Positions 45,001 through 57,000 are shown, numbered from the stretch's first letter. The stretch: DNA of 64,000 nt from Clostridium sp. UBA2485 (GCF_002341865.1 NZ_DDOV01000084.1:15941-79940), one strand, 5' to 3'. Numbers are program-made.

Positions 45001-48000
45001 AAACTCATATAATAAATATATATTCAAAATTAGAAGTAAATAATAGAGTTGAAGCTATTAACGAAGGAAGAAAAAGAATAATAATTTAAATGAGGTTGTG
45101 TTCATAGTACTAATATGAACGCAATATAGCACCATCTAGCAAATATATCTATAATATTTTTGATTAACTAATTTATTTTAGATGCTTTAATAAGATGAGA
45201 TTTTAATACAAAGAGTGGTGAGGACAAATAAGGATAGATAGGTTACTTGGAATAATTATATATTTATTAAATCGAGATATAGTAAATGCAAATACATTAG
45301 CTGAAAAATTTGAAGTTTCAACAAGAACTATACAACGTGATATTGAAACACTAAATTTAGCTGGAATACCTATTACATCTATACAAGGTATAAATGGAGG
45401 TTATGGTATTATTGAGAGTTTTAAGCTAGAAAAACAAATAGCTAATACAGAAGATTATATTTCTGTTATTACTGCTTTAAGAGGTATGTGTTCAGCATAT
45501 GACAATAAAAAGTTTGAAGCGACCCTTGAAAAGCTACTCAGTGTTTCTAAAGAAGAAAAATTTATGAATCCTAAGATAAGGTTTGATTTTAGTCTTTCAA
45601 GAGAAGGTAGCAATATAGATGAATATATAAGAGCTATTGAAAATGCTATTAATGAAGATAAAGTCATAGAATTTGAATATGCAAATTCATATGGAGATAA
45701 AAAAGTGCGATTAGTAGAGCCAGTTATCGTTATATATAAATGGTATGGGTGGTATTTATTAGCATACTGCTGTAATAAGAAGGATTATAGATTATTTAAA
45801 GTAATTAGAATGCGACACTTAAAGTTGACAGATAAATCCTGCTCTATTAAACATGAAAATATAGACGAGCTATTATCTAAGCAAGAAGAACAAGGTAATT
45901 ATGAAATTGTACAAGCTAAAATACTGTGTAAAGAAGAAATACGGATTTCCGTTGAAGAATATTTTCCAAATGGTAATATTACAGATTTAGAAAATGGAGA
46001 TTTTATACTTCAATTTGCACTACCAAAAGGTGAAATGAGTTGGATGGGTATTCTATTAAACTATGGTAATAAAATTAAAGTAATGGAGCCTAAAGAATTA
46101 AAAGAAAAATTTATAGTTAAGGCAAAAGAAATTATTGATATTTATAAATAATATACGACATATAGTTGTCGTATATTCTTCTTTATAATGTAGTTAAAGT
46201 TAATTATAAGGGGGAGTTTTTATGGTATATTCAATAGAACAAATAAAAAATAGTATTGCATACTGTGGTCTTGTTTGTGCATTTTGTAGCACAGGAAAAT
46301 CAGGAAAATGTATAGGGTGCAGAGAAAAATCTGGTGGATGCTCAATTAAAGTATGTGCACAATCAAAAAAAATTAATGGATGTTGGGAATGTAATGAATT
46401 CCCTTGTGATAATGAGATGTTTAAAAGTAAGCGAGTTAAAGTATTTGTTCAATGTGCTAAGGATGAAGGAGTACATAAATTAGCAGGGTATTTAAAGAAA
46501 AACTATGATGATGGAGTTCAATATAATAAAGATGATGGTGAAGAAGGAGATTATGATGTTTTAGATAATGAAGAACAAATATTGCTTTTGCTAAAAAATA
46601 AAAGTTGATAATTTTAATGCTTTATAATTAGAACTTAAAAATAGACTTAACTCTACAACCGTAGAATTAAGTCTATTTTATTTTGATTATCTTTACGAAG
46701 CGTTTTCTATAAATAAAAACTCATAATAATAAGTTCCCCTTTTTTACCCATTTTACGTACACCTTCATCAATGTAGCCACATTTTTTATATAGTGATTGT
46801 GCAGCTACATTTTTTATATTTACTGCTAATACAATTTCACTAATATGTGGATATTTTTTTCGTACAAATTCAGGTAATAACAATAATGATTTCTTAGCAT
46901 ATCCTTTTCCTTGATGATGATAATTCGTTGAAAATGCTCGTAATAGCATAGCATTTGGATTTTTAGAATAAGGTTTTACACCTTCATTTTCGTGAAGTAC
47001 AAAGAATGTAACAGACGCATTATTTTCAATTGCTAATATAGAATGTCTGTCAGCATCCGCTTTTGATAACTCTACGCATTCCTCTGGTGTACCTGTAAAT
47101 TGGAGTTGTTCATCAGATAAAATATAGTTTTCAATTGTATTTTCGAATTTAGCTTCATACTCAAATAATTCCATAATGTCCTCCACAAACTGCCTATTAA
47201 TTAATAATAATAAACACCTAAATATTATTTTTATATTATAAGTTCTATAAGTATTTTTAAATATCTTTTAATTAGACCATAGATATAGATAAACTACCTT
47301 AAAAATTAATTTATAGGTAAATATGGCTACCTTTAAATATTTTAATTTACAACTTTAATCAATGGAGAATTGAGAATGGACAATTGACAATTATGGTCGA
47401 AATTAGTTTTAATTAAACTAATTTCTTTAATAGATTTTTTAATAAAAGTGACTGTGTCGCCTGAAAAGAAATCAATTGAAAACTTCTCTTATAAAAGAGA
47501 AGTATCAATAATTCTCCATTGTCAATAGTCAATTCTCAATTGCATAAGTGATATAACAGAGAAAACTTTGAACTAAAAATAGTTTTTTCTATACTCATCT
47601 GGTGAATGACCATAAACTCTTTTAAATGCTGCTGAAAACTTACTAGCATTTGCGTATCCAATATGTTTTGCAATATTTTGAATTTTTAACTCACTATTGG
47701 ATAGGAGAATCAGCGAATGCCGCATCTTCGCAAGACGGATATATTCTCCAATTGTCATGTGGTACGCAGCTTTAAATGATTCACGTAGTTTTGTTTGACC
47801 AATTGCAGCAATATTACAGAGCTCTGTAATATCTGGTGGATTGATAATATTTTTATCAATTGCAGATTTCACTAATTCTAGTTGTTTTAAATCTTTAGTT
47901 GAAACAAAGCTTACAGCTTTTTCTATTTTATGTTTTTCGTTTAAGAAATTACTTGCAATGATTGAAAGCAATTCACCAATCTTACTCTCATAATATAAAC

Positions 48001-54000: not shown

Positions 54001-57000
54001 TTGGGCTAATTCTGCTCATTGCTAATTTAATGGTTATACCAGCCTTATGGTTATCTTTCCGAGCCGTAAAAAAATATGGAAGTGAGAAAAATCAAATTCT
54101 AGCAGATAATGTGAGCAATATTGTAGAATATATTACAGGTATACAAACATTCCGTGCCTATGGTATTGGAGGAACGAAGAATAAAGCTGTTACAGATTCA
54201 ATGAGATCCTATAGTAATGTGAGTTATGTATATGAAAAAAAAGTTATACCTATTGGTGTTACATTTAACATCATTGCATGGTGCAGCCTACCAGCAACTA
54301 TTATTGCTGCGGGAAATGCTTGGATGTCTGGAATACTAGATACCGCTGCTTTTCTGATGGTTAGTATGATCCCAATTTTTGTATCAAAGCTAGCAGGAAC
54401 TATTTTTATTGATTGTACATCATATAAAAACTTAATGATTTCTAAAGGAAAGATTACTCAGATTATCAATGAACAGGAAGAAAGAAAATCAGATGTTATA
54501 TTTACACCTAAAGCTCATGATATATGTTTTGAAGATGTGAACTTTTCTTATGTGGAGGGGGAGCCGATCCTTACTGGAGTTAATTTTACAGCGGAAGATA
54601 AAAAACTAACTGCAATTGTTGGAGATTCTGGATCTGGTAAATCTACAATTCTAAATCTTATTTCTAAATACTATGAACCACAGGCTGGAGATATTAAAAT
54701 TGGAGGAATATCTATCAATGATATAAATTCAGAAAAAGTTTTGAGTCAGATTTCAATGGTTGATCAGGATGTATTTTTATTTAATGATACCATTAAGAAT
54801 AATATACGTTATGCTCGTCCTTCAGCCACCGACGCAGAAATTGTGGAAGCTTGCAAACTAGCAAACTGTACTAACTTTATTGAAAAATTGGAAAAGGGAT
54901 ATGATACGCCTGTAGGAGAAAACGGCAACCAGATTTCAGGTGGTGAAAGGCAAAGAATTTCTATTGCTCGTGCTATTTTGAAAAATAGTCCAATCATACT
55001 TTTGGATGAAGCAACAGCTTCTTTAGATATTGAGAATGAGCTAGCAGTAAAAGAGGCAATTTTAAATCTTTTGAAAGCTAAAAAGACAGTGATTATGATT
55101 GCTCATACACTCTCAATTATTAAAAATGCTGATAAAATTCTTGTAGTTTCAAATGGTAAAGTTATAGAACAGGGAACACATAGTGAATTAATAAAGAAGC
55201 GAGGAAAGTATAATGCCATGTGGCAAGCAGAAGAACAAATTTATAGAATTAAGGAAAATGCTTAAAAATCATCTTTAATAATTTAATAGAATAAAAATGA
55301 TTATTTAGTATTGAGATTAATAATAAACTATATTTATATGAAAAATGGCGATTTTATAATTGTAATTAAAATCGCTATTTCTTTGATATATAATTTAAAA
55401 GAAAAAGGATAGTTATAGAGATCTATATTAAATAAAGGAGAGTCTATACAATCCATAATAAAATTTTTACAATGAATGCAAATTAAGAATGAATAATGAA
55501 GAATTATGGTTAAAACTCCACCGTCAGAGCCTTTGGAGTTTTTTAAAATAAACTCCATTTTAGAAATTCACTAACAGTGAATTTCATCCTGAATCTTTCA
55601 TTTTTAATTATTAATCCTTAATTTCCAAGGGGTTAATCTGTTTTTATAGAAGATTTATTTTTCAGAGTATATATTAAGTTTTTACATTGTATTCCTATAA
55701 AACTACTTGTTCATCTAAAATTAATAGGTTTATTTCTCAATTTATAATAAAATAGAAATTAATAAATAGGTAATTATGGAGATAATCGTTTTAAGTTTAT
55801 TATAAAAAATATTAATTTTAGGGGTGAAAATATGAAGCTGTTATATGGTACATCTAATCCAGCAAAATTGGCACATATGAAAAAAGTCCTTGAAGGATTA
55901 GATATTGAAATTATAGGATTAAAGGATATTAATTTAAAGTTTGATGAAATAGATGAAAGTGGTAATGAGCCACTAGAAAATGCTAGGATTAAAGCTCTTG
56001 CATATTATAAGACTTATAAAAGTCCAGTATTTTCTTGTGACTCAGGACTGTACATAGAAGGATTAAGTAAAGAAAATCAACCTGGAGTACATGTTAGAAG
56101 AGTGAATGGAAAAAGCTTAGATGATGAGGAAATGATAGATTACTATAGCTCCTTAGCTAGAAAGTTAGGAGGACAAGCAAAGGCAAGATATAAAAATGGT
56201 ATATGTCTAGTGATGGATGATAAAAATATATTTGAATATGATGGGGAAGATATAGGAACAGGAAGTTTTATAATATCTTCAAAACCTCATGAAAAAAGAA
56301 ATGAAGGATTCCCTTTAGATTCTCTTTCAGTAGATATAGAAAGTAATATGTATTATATTGATATAGAGAATAATAAGAAAAATAAAGATGATAATATTCA
56401 GAATAAAGGATTTAGAGAATTTTTTAAGAGAACGGCATTAAGGCATCTTGAAAAAATATCTAGTCAGTAGATTAGATTATTTTATTTCAGATGCCATATT
56501 TATTATAATTCTAGTATAGCGGTTTTTATGTGATCTTCAATATCTGCTATGATTTTAAGTGTATCAGCTACATCGTCTAAGCGATTTAATGTTGCTAGTG
56601 TTTGGCATTTGCCAAATAATCTAGATTGTTTTTCTTTTAGTGTTGATATTACACCATTTCGATTATTAAAATATTTTGCGAAATCTTGTGCTCTTCTTGC
56701 TGCTAATGGAAAGGCAAAATATATTAAATGAGACATTTCTCGATTCGTAATTTTTTTGTTTTTAAACTCGGTTGCTTTTATATTTATTGCTTCTTTTCCA
56801 AAAGGCATTTTAGATTTTTCCATTGCCTTTTGTTGATTTATATATATGGTTTTAAAATTGTTAACTGCTCTTAAAAAAATCTCATCTTCACTTAGATTTA
56901 ATTCTTTCTTAGGAGAAAACCAGTAATGATAAGGTCCTTTTTTACAGTGTATTTTATCAGCTTTCCAAGCTAAATCTAATTGACTTAAAGATAATGATAC

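What the first reader, a model, noticed from the sequence alone, without database searches (positions are those of the whole stretch)
47573..55265. AraC regulator, MptD-type ECF importer (S, T, fused A-A) and an exporter-fold ABC heterodimer as one cluster
- Downstream of a good promoter (TTGACG-17-TACAAT at 48724-48752) five genes run with overlaps or short gaps.
- They encode a 203-aa S component, EcfT, a double-NBD EcfA, and two TMD-NBD half-transporters with the exporter fold.
- An AraC regulator with a large N-terminal ligand domain is divergent from this operon.
- The architecture matches what I remember of the mycobacterial mpt cluster (mptABC plus mptDEF). It also recalls YbtA-YbtPQ-type metallophore systems, where exporter-fold ABC proteins actually import.
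- The substrate of MptD-type S components is, to my knowledge, not established.
- Pairing an ECF importer with an exporter-fold heterodimer under a ligand-sensing AraC suggests a secrete-and-recapture (metallophore-like) or import-and-detoxify circuit.
- I see no convincing Fur box.
Basis: partly seen in the sequence, partly recalled or inferred. Interest (0 to 1): 0.6.

Follow-up and report, generated by a model that had tools for sequence, protein, structure and literature searches.

The report
Metal-regulated ECF plus ABC transporter cluster
This Clostridium-type gene cluster joins an ECF importer of unknown cargo, an ABC pair that resembles a siderophore importer, and an AraC sensor behind a conserved binding site for a metal-sensing repressor. 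The same cluster type responds to metal starvation in pneumococcus and M. paratuberculosis, but its cargo has never been identified.

Summary
The window holds a divergent AraC gene (47573-48565, minus strand) and a five-gene operon (48870-55265): an MptD/Trep_Strep S component, EcfT, a fused EcfA-A, and two TMD-NBD half-transporters.

The half-transporters' best solved bacterial relatives are YbtP and YbtQ, in matching order.

The gene set is strongly co-conserved:
- 58 of 62 related loci keep the order S-T-AA-P-Q.
- 69 of 72 keep the divergent AraC.
- 17 of 20 more distant family members also sit beside such an ABC pair.

New here is a conserved palindrome, GGTTAG-N6-CTAACC (window 48767-48784). 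It lies between two face-to-face promoters, one for the operon and one for araC. It matches one dimer site of the DtxR/IdeR operator. A small DtxR-family gene follows the last transporter gene in 12 relatives and sits beside the paralogous ECF locus of this genome.

Best reading: a metal-starvation-controlled uptake module for a metal chelate. The cargo and the direction of the ABC pair are not shown.

The kind is already known from MAP mptABCDEF and pneumococcal SP1433-1438. This scan has also described it on other DNA (e1-2674750, e1-2994458). This is therefore a new member of a known, biochemically orphan kind.

The parts
47573..48565 (-). AraC-family regulator, 330 aa from the GTG start (an in-frame ATG lies 11 codons in). 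N-terminal cupin barrel plus a C-terminal double HTH.
   Evidence: Pfam HTH_18 at 68.9 bits. AlphaFold model pLDDT 82.9. Best PDB folds are the full-length AraC proteins ToxT, Rns and CsvR. A divergent AraC is present in 69 of 72 related loci.
48724..48752 (+). Candidate promoter of the transporter operon (TTGACG-17-TACAAT). An alternative extended -10 (TGATATAT) lies at 48759-48766.
   Evidence: Consensus scan, 10 of 12 matches. The -10 region upstream of the palindrome is only weakly conserved in relatives. Inferred, no TSS data.
48767..48784 (.). Palindromic operator GGTTAG-TTAGAA-CTAACT (family consensus GGTTAG-N6-CTAACC). It is predicted to cover the start sites of both promoters.
   Evidence: TTAG-N6-CTAA occurs in 71 of 78 upstream regions, against 0.8% of shuffles. 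The stricter core GTTAG-N6-CTAAC occurs 82 times in 1.28 Mb of loci, and 73 of those lie within 320 bp upstream of S, P or AraC genes. The half-sites are invariant and the spacer is free. It has the same half-site and spacing as one dimer site within the DtxR consensus quoted in PMC7762939.
48791..48819 (-). araC promoter on the minus strand: -35 TTGATG (48819-48814), 17-nt spacer, TG-extended -10 TATAAT (48796-48791). The predicted start site falls inside the right half of the operator.
   Evidence: Scan hit with TG extension. The family consensus TTGACt-17-TGnTATnnT is conserved 2 nt from the operator edge.
48870..49481 (+). ECF S component, MptD/Trep_Strep family, 203 aa.
   Evidence: Pfam and NCBIfam matches. 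Model pLDDT 92.8. The 14 best VIA-align matches are all solved ECF S components, led by YkoE 5edl (Z 11.7, rmsd 3.5 over 165 residues).
49478..50200 (+). EcfT transmembrane coupling component, 240 aa.
   Evidence: PF02361 CbiQ at 64.5 bits. It follows S in nearly all related loci.
50213..51709 (+). Fused EcfA-EcfA' double ATPase, 498 aa.
   Evidence: Two ABC_tran domains. TIGR04520 at 317 bits, above its cut-off of 315. Walker A, signature and Walker B motifs are present in both halves.
51776..53554 (+). ABC half-transporter P (TMD-NBD, type IV/exporter fold), YbtP-like, 592 aa.
   Evidence: ABC_membrane plus ABC_tran. Best solved bacterial half-transporter is YbtP 6p6i_A at 271 bits, against Sav1866 at 257 and YbtQ at 234. 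Consensus Walker A/B, catalytic Glu, signature and H-loop.
53532..55265 (+). ABC half-transporter Q, YbtQ-like, 577 aa.
   Evidence: Best solved bacterial half-transporter is YbtQ 8vsi_B at 309 bits over residues 19-567, against Sav1866 at 243.5. Consensus ATPase motifs.
55343..55385 (+). Hairpin followed by a T-rich tail, the probable intrinsic terminator of the operon, about 80 nt after the Q stop codon.
   Evidence: RNA fold -14.2 kcal/mol, z -5.3 against shuffles. The loop is 10 nt, which is why the terminator scan missed it. Inferred.

Best explanation
The cluster is a metal-starvation-controlled uptake module for a metal-chelating small molecule, that is, a metallophore-metal complex taken from the surroundings.

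Proposed mechanism:
1. When metal is sufficient, a small DtxR-family repressor binds as one dimer to GGTTAG-N6-CTAACC (48767-48784). In this genome that repressor is encoded beside the paralogous ECF locus on contig C4.
2. The site covers the start sites of two face-to-face promoters, so the repressor shuts off both araC and the transporter operon.
3. When the metal runs short, the repressor leaves and AraC is made.
4. The AraC protein binds a small ligand in its cupin domain and activates the operon.
5. The MptD-type S component, working with its own EcfT and fused EcfA-A, then imports the cargo with high affinity.
6. The YbtP/YbtQ-like heterodimer acts as a second inner-membrane importer without a binding protein, as YbtPQ does. 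It may take the same chelator loaded with another metal. I put import against export or recycling at about 55:45.

Shown: gene content, folds, co-conservation, the operator, and its position between the promoters.
Inferred: which protein binds the operator, which metal is sensed, the AraC ligand, the cargo, and the direction of the ABC pair.
For: 1. Homologous clusters respond to metal starvation in experiments.
- MAP mptA-F are induced 4- to 78-fold by zinc starvation. The mptABC operon responds to zinc but not iron (PMC4298942).
- Pneumococcal SP1434-1438 are induced more than 100-fold by TPEN. Zn or Co reverses this, and induction needs the AraC regulator SP1433. No antibiotic phenotype was seen (bioRxiv 10.1101/367086).

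2. P and Q match YbtP and YbtQ best among solved bacterial half-transporters, each to its own partner and in the same gene order. Both ATP sites are consensus.

3. The module is co-conserved.
- 58 of 62 related loci keep T-AA-P-Q after S, and 69 of 72 keep the divergent AraC.
- 17 of 20 independently sampled, more distant Trep_Strep loci carry a P-Q pair in varied gene orders.

4. The operator is family-wide.
- It is in 71 of 78 upstream regions, against 0.8% of shuffles.
- 73 of 82 core sites lie in front of S, P or AraC genes, including those of paralogous clusters.
- In this genome, 3 of the 6 core sites lie in the two MptD-ECF promoter regions, and a variant site precedes the C4 P-Q unit.

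5. The published DtxR consensus TTAGGTTAGCCTAACCTAA (PMC7762939) contains TTAG-N6-CTAA twice, offset by 5 bp. This can be read directly from the sequence.

6. The DtxR-family gene is tied to these clusters.
- It directly follows Q in 12 relatives. The family is the commonest extra neighbour, seen in 17 loci.
- This genome's copy lies directly after the paralogous S gene and is 47% identical to those copies.
- Four of five genomes without an adjacent copy have a 40-75% identical copy elsewhere, often right after Q- or AA-like genes.
- Aligned to IdeR, it keeps Ser37 and Pro39 of the recognition helix and the Cys102/Glu105/His106 metal site.

7. All known ECF transporters are importers (established knowledge), and S has the S-component fold.
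Against: - No substrate is known for any MptD-type S component.
- S has no conserved His, Cys or Asp cluster that would point to a metal complex.
- No metallophore biosynthesis or hydrolase genes are conserved beside the cluster.
- The window itself has no DtxR gene and no remnant of one after Q, so control would have to act in trans.
- The experimental systems respond to zinc. DtxR-family proteins usually sense Fe or Mn, so the metal is uncertain.
- Two importers for one cargo would be redundant, which favours an export or recycling role for P-Q.
- AraC proteins could in principle bind the palindrome themselves.
- The strict operator is rare in the more distant family members sampled: it occurs in 4 of 20 loci, and next to the Trep_Strep/AraC genes in 3 of them.
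- This genome already has two conventional metallophore systems with FecCD-type importers.
Confidence: 0.55

Rival explanations
1. The metal-regulated module is the same, but the two transporters work in opposite directions. The ECF system imports the metal-loaded chelator. The P-Q pair exports the emptied chelator for recycling, or pumps out excess chelator or metal as detoxification.
For: Strict co-occurrence of the two transporters in several gene orders fits complementary roles better than redundant ones. P and Q have the exporter (type IV) fold and score almost as well against Sav1866 as against YbtP.
Against: The closest solved relatives for both subunits are the importer subunits YbtP and YbtQ. 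No biosynthetic genes are conserved nearby. Stand-alone AraC-P-Q units with their own operator exist, arranged like ybtA-ybtPQ.
Confidence: 0.2
2. The cargo is not a metal chelate. The ECF system imports a vitamin, cofactor or peptide-like nutrient, and P-Q is a multidrug or peptide exporter. The palindrome is bound by the AraC proteins or another non-metal regulator.
For: Most characterised ECF S components carry vitamins. The nearest solved folds are the thiamine-related S components YkoE and ThiT. P and Q score against many exporter families in NCBIfam. The AraC fold resembles the fatty-acid-binding regulators ToxT and Rns. The window has no metalloregulator gene.
Against: Homologous operons are induced by metal chelation, and a pneumococcal mutant lacking SP1434 showed no change in antibiotic sensitivity. 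A DtxR-family gene sits inside many orthologous operons. The operator has DtxR geometry and lies at the start sites, which is a repressor position. P and Q lack the degenerate ATP site that is common in Firmicute heterodimeric drug pumps (for the motifs; the comparison rests on general knowledge).
Confidence: 0.12
3. The cluster handles haem. The ECF system imports haem, as LhaSTA does in Staphylococcus lugdunensis, and the ABC pair exports or detoxifies the excess, all under an iron-sensing DtxR-type repressor.
For: Haem-specific ECF transporters exist, and their S components share little sequence with each other (PMC7299338). DtxR-family control of haem uptake is established in corynebacteria (general knowledge). 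Pairing import with export suits a toxic nutrient.
Against: The MAP and pneumococcal homologues respond to zinc and not to iron. No haem-binding or haem-degrading genes are conserved nearby. The ABC pair resembles YbtPQ, not HrtAB-type haem exporters.
Confidence: 0.06
4. The ECF system imports a free transition-metal ion, as CbiMNQO and NikMNQO do.
For: The T and A components score against the cobalt ECF models. The pneumococcal deletion changed cellular Mn, Fe and Zn.
Against: S lacks the conserved N-terminal metal-binding motif of CbiM/NikM. Its first 11 residues are not conserved and are disordered in the model. CbiM and NikM are weaker fold matches (Z 6.1-6.7) than the small-molecule S components (Z 8-11.7). 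A ligand-sensing AraC suggests an organic ligand.
Confidence: 0.05

Closest known systems
Streptococcus pneumoniae SP1433-SP1438 operon (bioRxiv 10.1101/367086; SPD_1267 is called a Zn-responsive ECF transporter in PMC10659304)
   Same: It has an AraC regulator, two exporter-fold ABC half-transporters, and an ECF S/T/A set that the paper describes as EcfS, EcfT and EcfA. It is induced by metal limitation, and the AraC is required for that induction. The cargo is unknown.
   Different: The gene order is P-Q-S-T-A, with AraC upstream in the pneumococcal operon. Induction was shown with TPEN and reversed by Zn or Co. No DtxR-type operator is reported there. I did not compare the sequences directly.
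Mycobacterium avium subsp. paratuberculosis mptABCDEF (PMC4298942, PMC4132290)
   Same: It pairs IrtAB-like ABC genes with MptD (the protein that names the S-component family) and ECF T and A components. It is induced by metal starvation. The substrate is unknown.
   Different: It lies in an actinobacterial island next to siderophore synthesis genes. It is zinc-responsive (the paper attributes this to a Zur-type regulator) rather than carrying a DtxR-type palindrome. No AraC is described. It has three ABC genes (mptABC), not two.
Yersinia YbtA / YbtPQ yersiniabactin uptake (structures 6p6i, 8vsi)
   Same: P and Q are the closest solved relatives of YbtP and YbtQ, in the same order. Both ATP sites are consensus. 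An AraC regulator is transcribed divergently. Control combines a metal repressor with a ligand-sensing AraC.
   Different: The scores indicate distant homology (271 and 309 bits). YbtPQ has no ECF partner. The metal repressor there is Fur. Biosynthesis genes and an outer-membrane receptor are linked there, and none are here.
DtxR/IdeR operator and repressor
   Same: The half-site TTAG and the N6 spacing to CTAA are identical to one dimer site of the 19-bp consensus. The associated regulator keeps Ser37 and Pro39 and the Cys102/Glu105/His106 site.
   Different: There is a single palindrome, not two overlapping ones. The full 19-bp box fits poorly, with 7 mismatches. The regulator has two domains and about 122-135 aa, with no SH3-like domain. 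Met10 is replaced by Asn or Asp, and Gln43 by His.
Dedicated (group I) ECF transporters such as the YkoEDC, BioMNY and CbiMNQO types
   Same: S, T and A genes lie in one operon, and the S component has the six-helix S fold (Z 11.7 to YkoE).
   Different: The A components are fused. The system is always partnered with an exporter-fold ABC pair. The substrate is unknown.

Membership tests
MptD/Trep_Strep ECF S components (PF09605, TIGR02185) | Score above the curated cut-offs of the family models | tested here: met
   PF09605 at 206.2 bits (cut-off 28.7). TIGR02185 at 150.9 bits (cut-off 76.45).
ECF transporter, dedicated type | S-component fold | tested here: met
   Model pLDDT 92.8. The top 14 VIA-align matches are all ECF S components, led by 5edl (Z 11.7, rmsd 3.5, 165 residues aligned).
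ECF transporter, dedicated type | EcfT and two EcfA ATPase domains encoded with S in one operon | tested here: met
   CbiQ at 64.5 bits. A fused double ABC_tran protein scoring 317 bits against TIGR04520 (cut-off 315). The genes overlap or lie 12 bp apart.
ECF transporter, dedicated type | Import of a defined micronutrient | not testable with these tools
   No substrate is known for the family.
YbtPQ/IrtAB-type (type IV fold) ABC importers | Two adjacent TMD-NBD half-transporters with the exporter fold | tested here: met
   PF00664 plus PF00005 in both proteins, with a 23-bp overlap between the genes.
YbtPQ/IrtAB-type (type IV fold) ABC importers | Specific sequence relationship to YbtP and YbtQ rather than to exporters | tested here: inconclusive
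   Q scores 309 bits against YbtQ, against 243.5 for the next bacterial half-transporter. P scores 271 against YbtP and 257 against Sav1866, which is a small margin. No phylogeny was built.
YbtPQ/IrtAB-type (type IV fold) ABC importers | Inward transport of a metal-siderophore complex | not testable with these tools
   This needs transport assays.
YbtPQ/IrtAB-type (type IV fold) ABC importers | N-terminal siderophore-interaction (reductase) domain, as in IrtA | tested here: not met
   P and Q are 592 and 577 aa, and no extra domain was detected. The pair therefore resembles YbtPQ, not IrtAB.
AraC/XylS regulators with a cupin sensor domain (YbtA/PchR-like logic) | C-terminal double HTH plus an N-terminal cupin barrel | tested here: met
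   HTH_18 at 68.9 bits. Model pLDDT 82.9, with 11 strands followed by helices. Best folds are ToxT, Rns and CsvR at E 7e-9 to 5e-7.
AraC/XylS regulators with a cupin sensor domain (YbtA/PchR-like logic) | Binds the metal-chelate and activates the transporter promoter | not testable with these tools
   The only support is by analogy: pneumococcal SP1433 is needed for induction.
DtxR-family regulon | Palindromic operator with TTAG/CTAA half-sites at DtxR spacing, overlapping the promoter | tested here: met
   Site at 48767-48784. It is conserved in 71 of 78 relatives and placed at both predicted start sites.
DtxR-family regulon | A cognate DtxR-family repressor that binds the site when loaded with metal | tested here: inconclusive
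   The gene is present in this genome (C4, 135 aa) and lies inside the operon in 12 relatives. Binding was not tested.
mpt / SP1433-1438 cluster type | MptD-type ECF genes adjacent to an exporter-fold ABC pair | tested here: met
   Seen in the window, in 58 of 62 related loci, and in 17 of 20 distant loci. The gene content of the reference clusters was taken from the papers.
mpt / SP1433-1438 cluster type | Induction by metal limitation | not testable with these tools
   For this cluster it is inferred only from the operator.

The most novel reading that the evidence does not exclude
MptD-type ECF transporters may be the first ECF importers of metallophores. They would work obligatorily with a YbtPQ-like pair and be controlled by a dedicated single-dimer DtxR-type repressor at a shared operator between two face-to-face promoters, together with a chelate-sensing AraC. 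That would make this an unrecognised metal-piracy system found in more than 500 species, including many human-gut Clostridia, pneumococcus and M. paratuberculosis.
Probability: 0.35. Interest if true: 0.75.

Novelty: new member of a known kind. Interest (0 to 1): 0.5.

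Why it matters
The cluster type is linked to fitness in two pathogens. A MAP mptD knockout is attenuated, and the pneumococcal operon is among the genes most strongly induced by zinc chelation. 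The type is also common in gut Firmicutes. Yet neither transporter has a known cargo.

The conserved operator and its candidate repressor give a direct experimental handle. They suggest which growth conditions should switch the operon on, and therefore when the S component should be loaded with its natural ligand for identification.

If the cargo is a metallophore, this would add a new substrate class to ECF transporters. It would also give a Gram-positive counterpart to YbtA/YbtPQ.

Tried and rejected
- Riboswitch or other leader RNA: no Rfam match in 47000-56000 even at E up to 1.
- RNA hairpin reading of the palindrome: in this window it can fold at -7.7 kcal/mol. Across relatives the arms are sequence-invariant and the spacer varies freely, with no compensatory changes. 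I therefore read it as a protein-binding site.
- Fur box and the full 19-bp DtxR box in the intergenic region: no better than shuffles.
- Remnant of a DtxR gene after Q (55266-55831): none found by tblastn.
- Recent horizontal transfer of this copy: the cluster GC is 33% against 28.4% for the genome, but GC3 is 21-29%, so there is no clear signal. Relatives do sit beside relaxase and recombinase genes.
- Link to this genome's own metallophore clusters (opine type on C4, NRPS on C108): neither carries the operator, and each has its own FecCD importer.
- Alpha/beta hydrolase embedded in five related clusters: only generic family matches, which are not informative.
- The search for related loci with the broad alignment A1 failed because no stretch was conserved enough. 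The narrower A2 was used instead.
- Foldseek alone gave E 0.19 for the S model. VIA-align settled the fold.
- The PDB sequence search with S found nothing.
- One search repeated an earlier search and added nothing.
- No complex prediction was run, because I make no binding claim beyond textbook subunit contacts.

Full report
**What is there**

The window comes from a low-GC genome (28.4% GC).

At the stated coordinates there is a 330-aa AraC gene on the minus strand (47573-48565). On the plus strand there are five tightly packed genes:
- S, 48870-49481
- T, 49478-50200
- AA, 50213-51709
- P, 51776-53554
- Q, 53532-55265

The junctions are a 4-bp overlap, a 12-bp gap, a 66-bp gap and a 23-bp overlap.

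The family assignments hold:
- T is CbiQ-like.
- AA is a fused double ECF ATPase, above the TIGR04520 cut-off.
- P and Q are TMD-NBD half-transporters.
- AraC has the C-terminal HTH pair and about 245 N-terminal residues that match no Pfam family.

A hairpin with a T-rich tail about 80 nt after Q (55343-55385; -14.2 kcal/mol, z -5.3) probably ends the operon. No Rfam family matches the region.

**Folds**

With a 39-sequence alignment the S model reaches pLDDT 92.8. Its 14 best VIA-align matches are all solved ECF S components: YkoE at Z 11.7, then ThiT, RibU, FolT, PanT and BioY, with CbiM and NikM lower. The 'putative' S-component label is therefore justified structurally.

The AraC model (pLDDT 82.9) is a cupin barrel followed by the double HTH. 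It is most like the ligand-binding full-length AraC proteins ToxT, Rns and CsvR. This shows a small-molecule pocket is plausible but does not identify the ligand.

**The ABC pair**

Against all PDB sequences, the best bacterial half-transporter for P is YbtP (6p6i_A, 271 bits; Sav1866 257; YbtQ 234). For Q it is YbtQ (8vsi_B, 309 bits over nearly full length; next is Sav1866 at 243.5).

Each subunit prefers its own Yersinia counterpart, and the gene order is the same. This suggests the pair as a whole is homologous to YbtPQ. The margin for P is small and I built no tree.

Both nucleotide-binding domains have consensus Walker A and B motifs, the catalytic Glu, the signature motif and the H-loop. 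There is no IrtA-type reductase domain.

**Co-conservation**

The S subfamily is highly conserved, at 47-76% identity across Clostridia, Paenibacillus, an Eggerthellaceae actinobacterium and a spirochaete. A scan of one genome per species found 518 relatives, and I kept 80 loci with 10-kb flanks.
- Of 62 loci with enough downstream sequence, 58 have T, AA and a P-Q pair in that order.
- Of 72 loci with enough upstream sequence, 69 have the divergent AraC.
- Many loci carry a second, paralogous cluster (S-T-AA-AraC-P-Q) next door.

I also took a second, independent sample through the Pfam model across the phylum. The family is patchy: 14 of 401 genomes score above the cut-off, and one genome has eight copies. 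Of 20 loci from that sample, 17 have a P-Q pair beside the Trep_Strep ECF genes, in several gene orders.

The window's own genome has a second set on contig C4: AraC, then T-AA-S, then a DtxR-family gene, and 5 kb away AraC-P-Q. Its S is only 28% identical to the window's S.

The AraC proteins diverge much faster than the transporters. Most are 18-24% identical to the window's AraC, and two are 48% identical.

**The regulatory region**

Aligning the upstream regions showed a palindrome, TTAG-N6-CTAA, in 71 of 78 regions against 0.8% of shuffles. The consensus is GGTTAG-N6-CTAACC, with invariant arms and a free spacer. In the window it lies at 48767-48784.

Immediately to its right, read on the minus strand, lies a well-conserved promoter, TTGACt-17-TGnTATnnT, whose -10 ends 2 nt from the palindrome. 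In the window this is TTGATG-17-(TG)TATAAT at 48819-48791, which the scan also found. It points towards araC.

To the left lies the less conserved -10 of the operon promoter.

The two promoters face each other, and both predicted start sites fall in or next to the palindrome. This is a repressor position, and one bound dimer would block both promoters.

The stricter core GTTAG-N6-CTAAC occurs 82 times in the 1.28 Mb of loci. Of these, 73 lie within 320 bp upstream of S, P or AraC genes, including the paralogous clusters and separately transcribed AraC/P-Q units. In the window's genome:
- Three of six core hits lie in the two MptD-ECF promoter regions.
- A one-base variant precedes the C4 P-Q unit.
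- None lies in the genome's opine or NRPS metallophore clusters.

**Who binds it**

The commonest additional neighbour in the 80 loci is a 122-aa DtxR-family gene. The family appears in 17 loci. In 12 of them the gene starts within about 30 bp of the Q stop codon on the same strand.

The C4 copy in this genome is 47% identical to those copies. It is one of only two DtxR-family genes in the assembly.

In four of five complete genomes without an adjacent copy, a 40-75% identical copy lies elsewhere, often again right after Q- or AA-like genes.

The published DtxR consensus TTAGGTTAGCCTAACCTAA (PMC7762939) contains TTAG-N6-CTAA twice, offset by 5 bp. The conserved palindrome therefore equals one such site.

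Aligned to IdeR, the regulator keeps Ser37 and Pro39 of the recognition helix and the Cys102/Glu105/His106 metal ligands. Met10 becomes Asn or Asp, and Gln43 becomes His. That these positions contact DNA and metal is from my knowledge of the DtxR/IdeR structures.

I therefore assign the operator to this DtxR subfamily. This is an inference: the AraC proteins share a conserved DNA-binding domain and remain a possible binder. The sensed metal cannot be read from the sequence.

**Literature**

The cluster type is not new.
- In M. avium subsp. paratuberculosis, mptA-F are induced 4- to 78-fold by zinc starvation. The mptABC operon responds to zinc but not iron (PMC4298942). An mptD knockout is attenuated, with function unknown (PMC4132290).
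- In pneumococcus, SP1433 (AraC), SP1434-35 (ABC pair) and SP1436-38 (ECF S, T, A) are induced more than 100-fold by TPEN. Zn or Co reverses this, and induction depends on SP1433. No antibiotic phenotype was seen (bioRxiv 10.1101/367086).
- The pneumococcal system was still described only as a Zn-responsive ECF transporter in 2024 (PMC10659304).

After I had reached this reading, the scan's own notes showed that other agents had described the same cassette on other genomes, with the same closest known system (e1-2674750, e1-2994458).

**How it most likely works**

Under metal sufficiency the DtxR-like dimer sits on the operator and blocks both promoters. Under limitation, AraC is made, binds a small ligand and activates the operon. 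The ECF system imports a metal chelate with high affinity, and the YbtPQ-like pair imports it too, perhaps loaded with a different metal.

The strict pairing of the two transporters could equally mean import plus recycling export. I put import against export for P-Q at about 55:45. Haem, a free metal ion or a non-metal cargo are less likely, for the reasons given under the rival explanations.

No biosynthesis genes travel with the cluster, so uptake of a foreign or host-derived ligand is the simplest version.

**Verdict**

- The cluster is a new member of a known but biochemically orphan kind.
- The comparative result worth keeping is the family-wide single-dimer DtxR-type operator between two face-to-face promoters. 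It makes de-orphaning experiments straightforward.

Noticed in passing
L003 (G000 contig C4:53000-72000), genes at 486-14531: A paralogous set lies in the same genome. It runs AraC (13563-14531, +), then T-AA-S (12638-9731, -), then a 135-aa DtxR-family gene (9493-9086, -). After two GNAT genes, a methyltransferase and a KNTase-like gene comes AraC-P-Q (5315-486, -). Operator-like sites lie at 12656, 12982 and 4163.
   Followed up: partly
L003:12700-13560: A roughly 19-nt motif, TTCGTCTAATCRTGGTATA, occurs four times (one copy inverted) in the 925-bp AraC/T intergenic region, together with REP-like palindromes. It may be an AraC site or a set of promoter copies.
   Followed up: no
L114 (G000 contig C4:24000-43999), 6310-13873, minus strand: An opine-type metallophore cluster. 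It has a nicotianamine-synthase-like gene (261 aa), a staphylopine dehydrogenase (481 bits), an EamA exporter and a FecCD-type ABC importer with a binding protein. It lies about 23 kb from the paralogous ECF locus and carries no operator.
   Followed up: partly
L116-L117 (G000 contig C108:15000-52000): An NRPS cluster with a thioesterase and a PPTase. Next to it lie the genome's second DtxR-family gene (126 aa), an ABC exporter and a FecCD-type importer. This looks like a conventional siderophore locus.
   Followed up: partly
window 48849-48876, minus strand: A near-consensus promoter-like site (TTGACA-16-TAAAAT, 11 of 12 matches) overlaps the start of the S gene and points towards araC. It may be a second araC promoter or chance in AT-rich DNA.
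   Followed up: no
L018, L019, L021, L032, L035 (about 12905-13708): A 267-aa alpha/beta hydrolase sits between AA and a second AraC/P-Q unit in five Oscillospiraceae-type loci. It gives only generic family matches.
   Followed up: partly
L094-L100 (G270, the same record as L055, a Peptococcaceae MAG): One 2.6-Mb genome carries eight Trep_Strep S genes, seven of them fetched, and each of those sits with an ABC pair. This is a lineage-specific expansion like the one reported for Treponema denticola.
   Followed up: partly
L029, L031, L038, L041, L046 and others; L079:18281-19660; L062:18591-20261: Clusters from different genera give almost identical scores against the window's proteins. Relaxase and serine-recombinase genes lie nearby, which suggests recent spread on mobile elements in gut Firmicutes.
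   Followed up: partly
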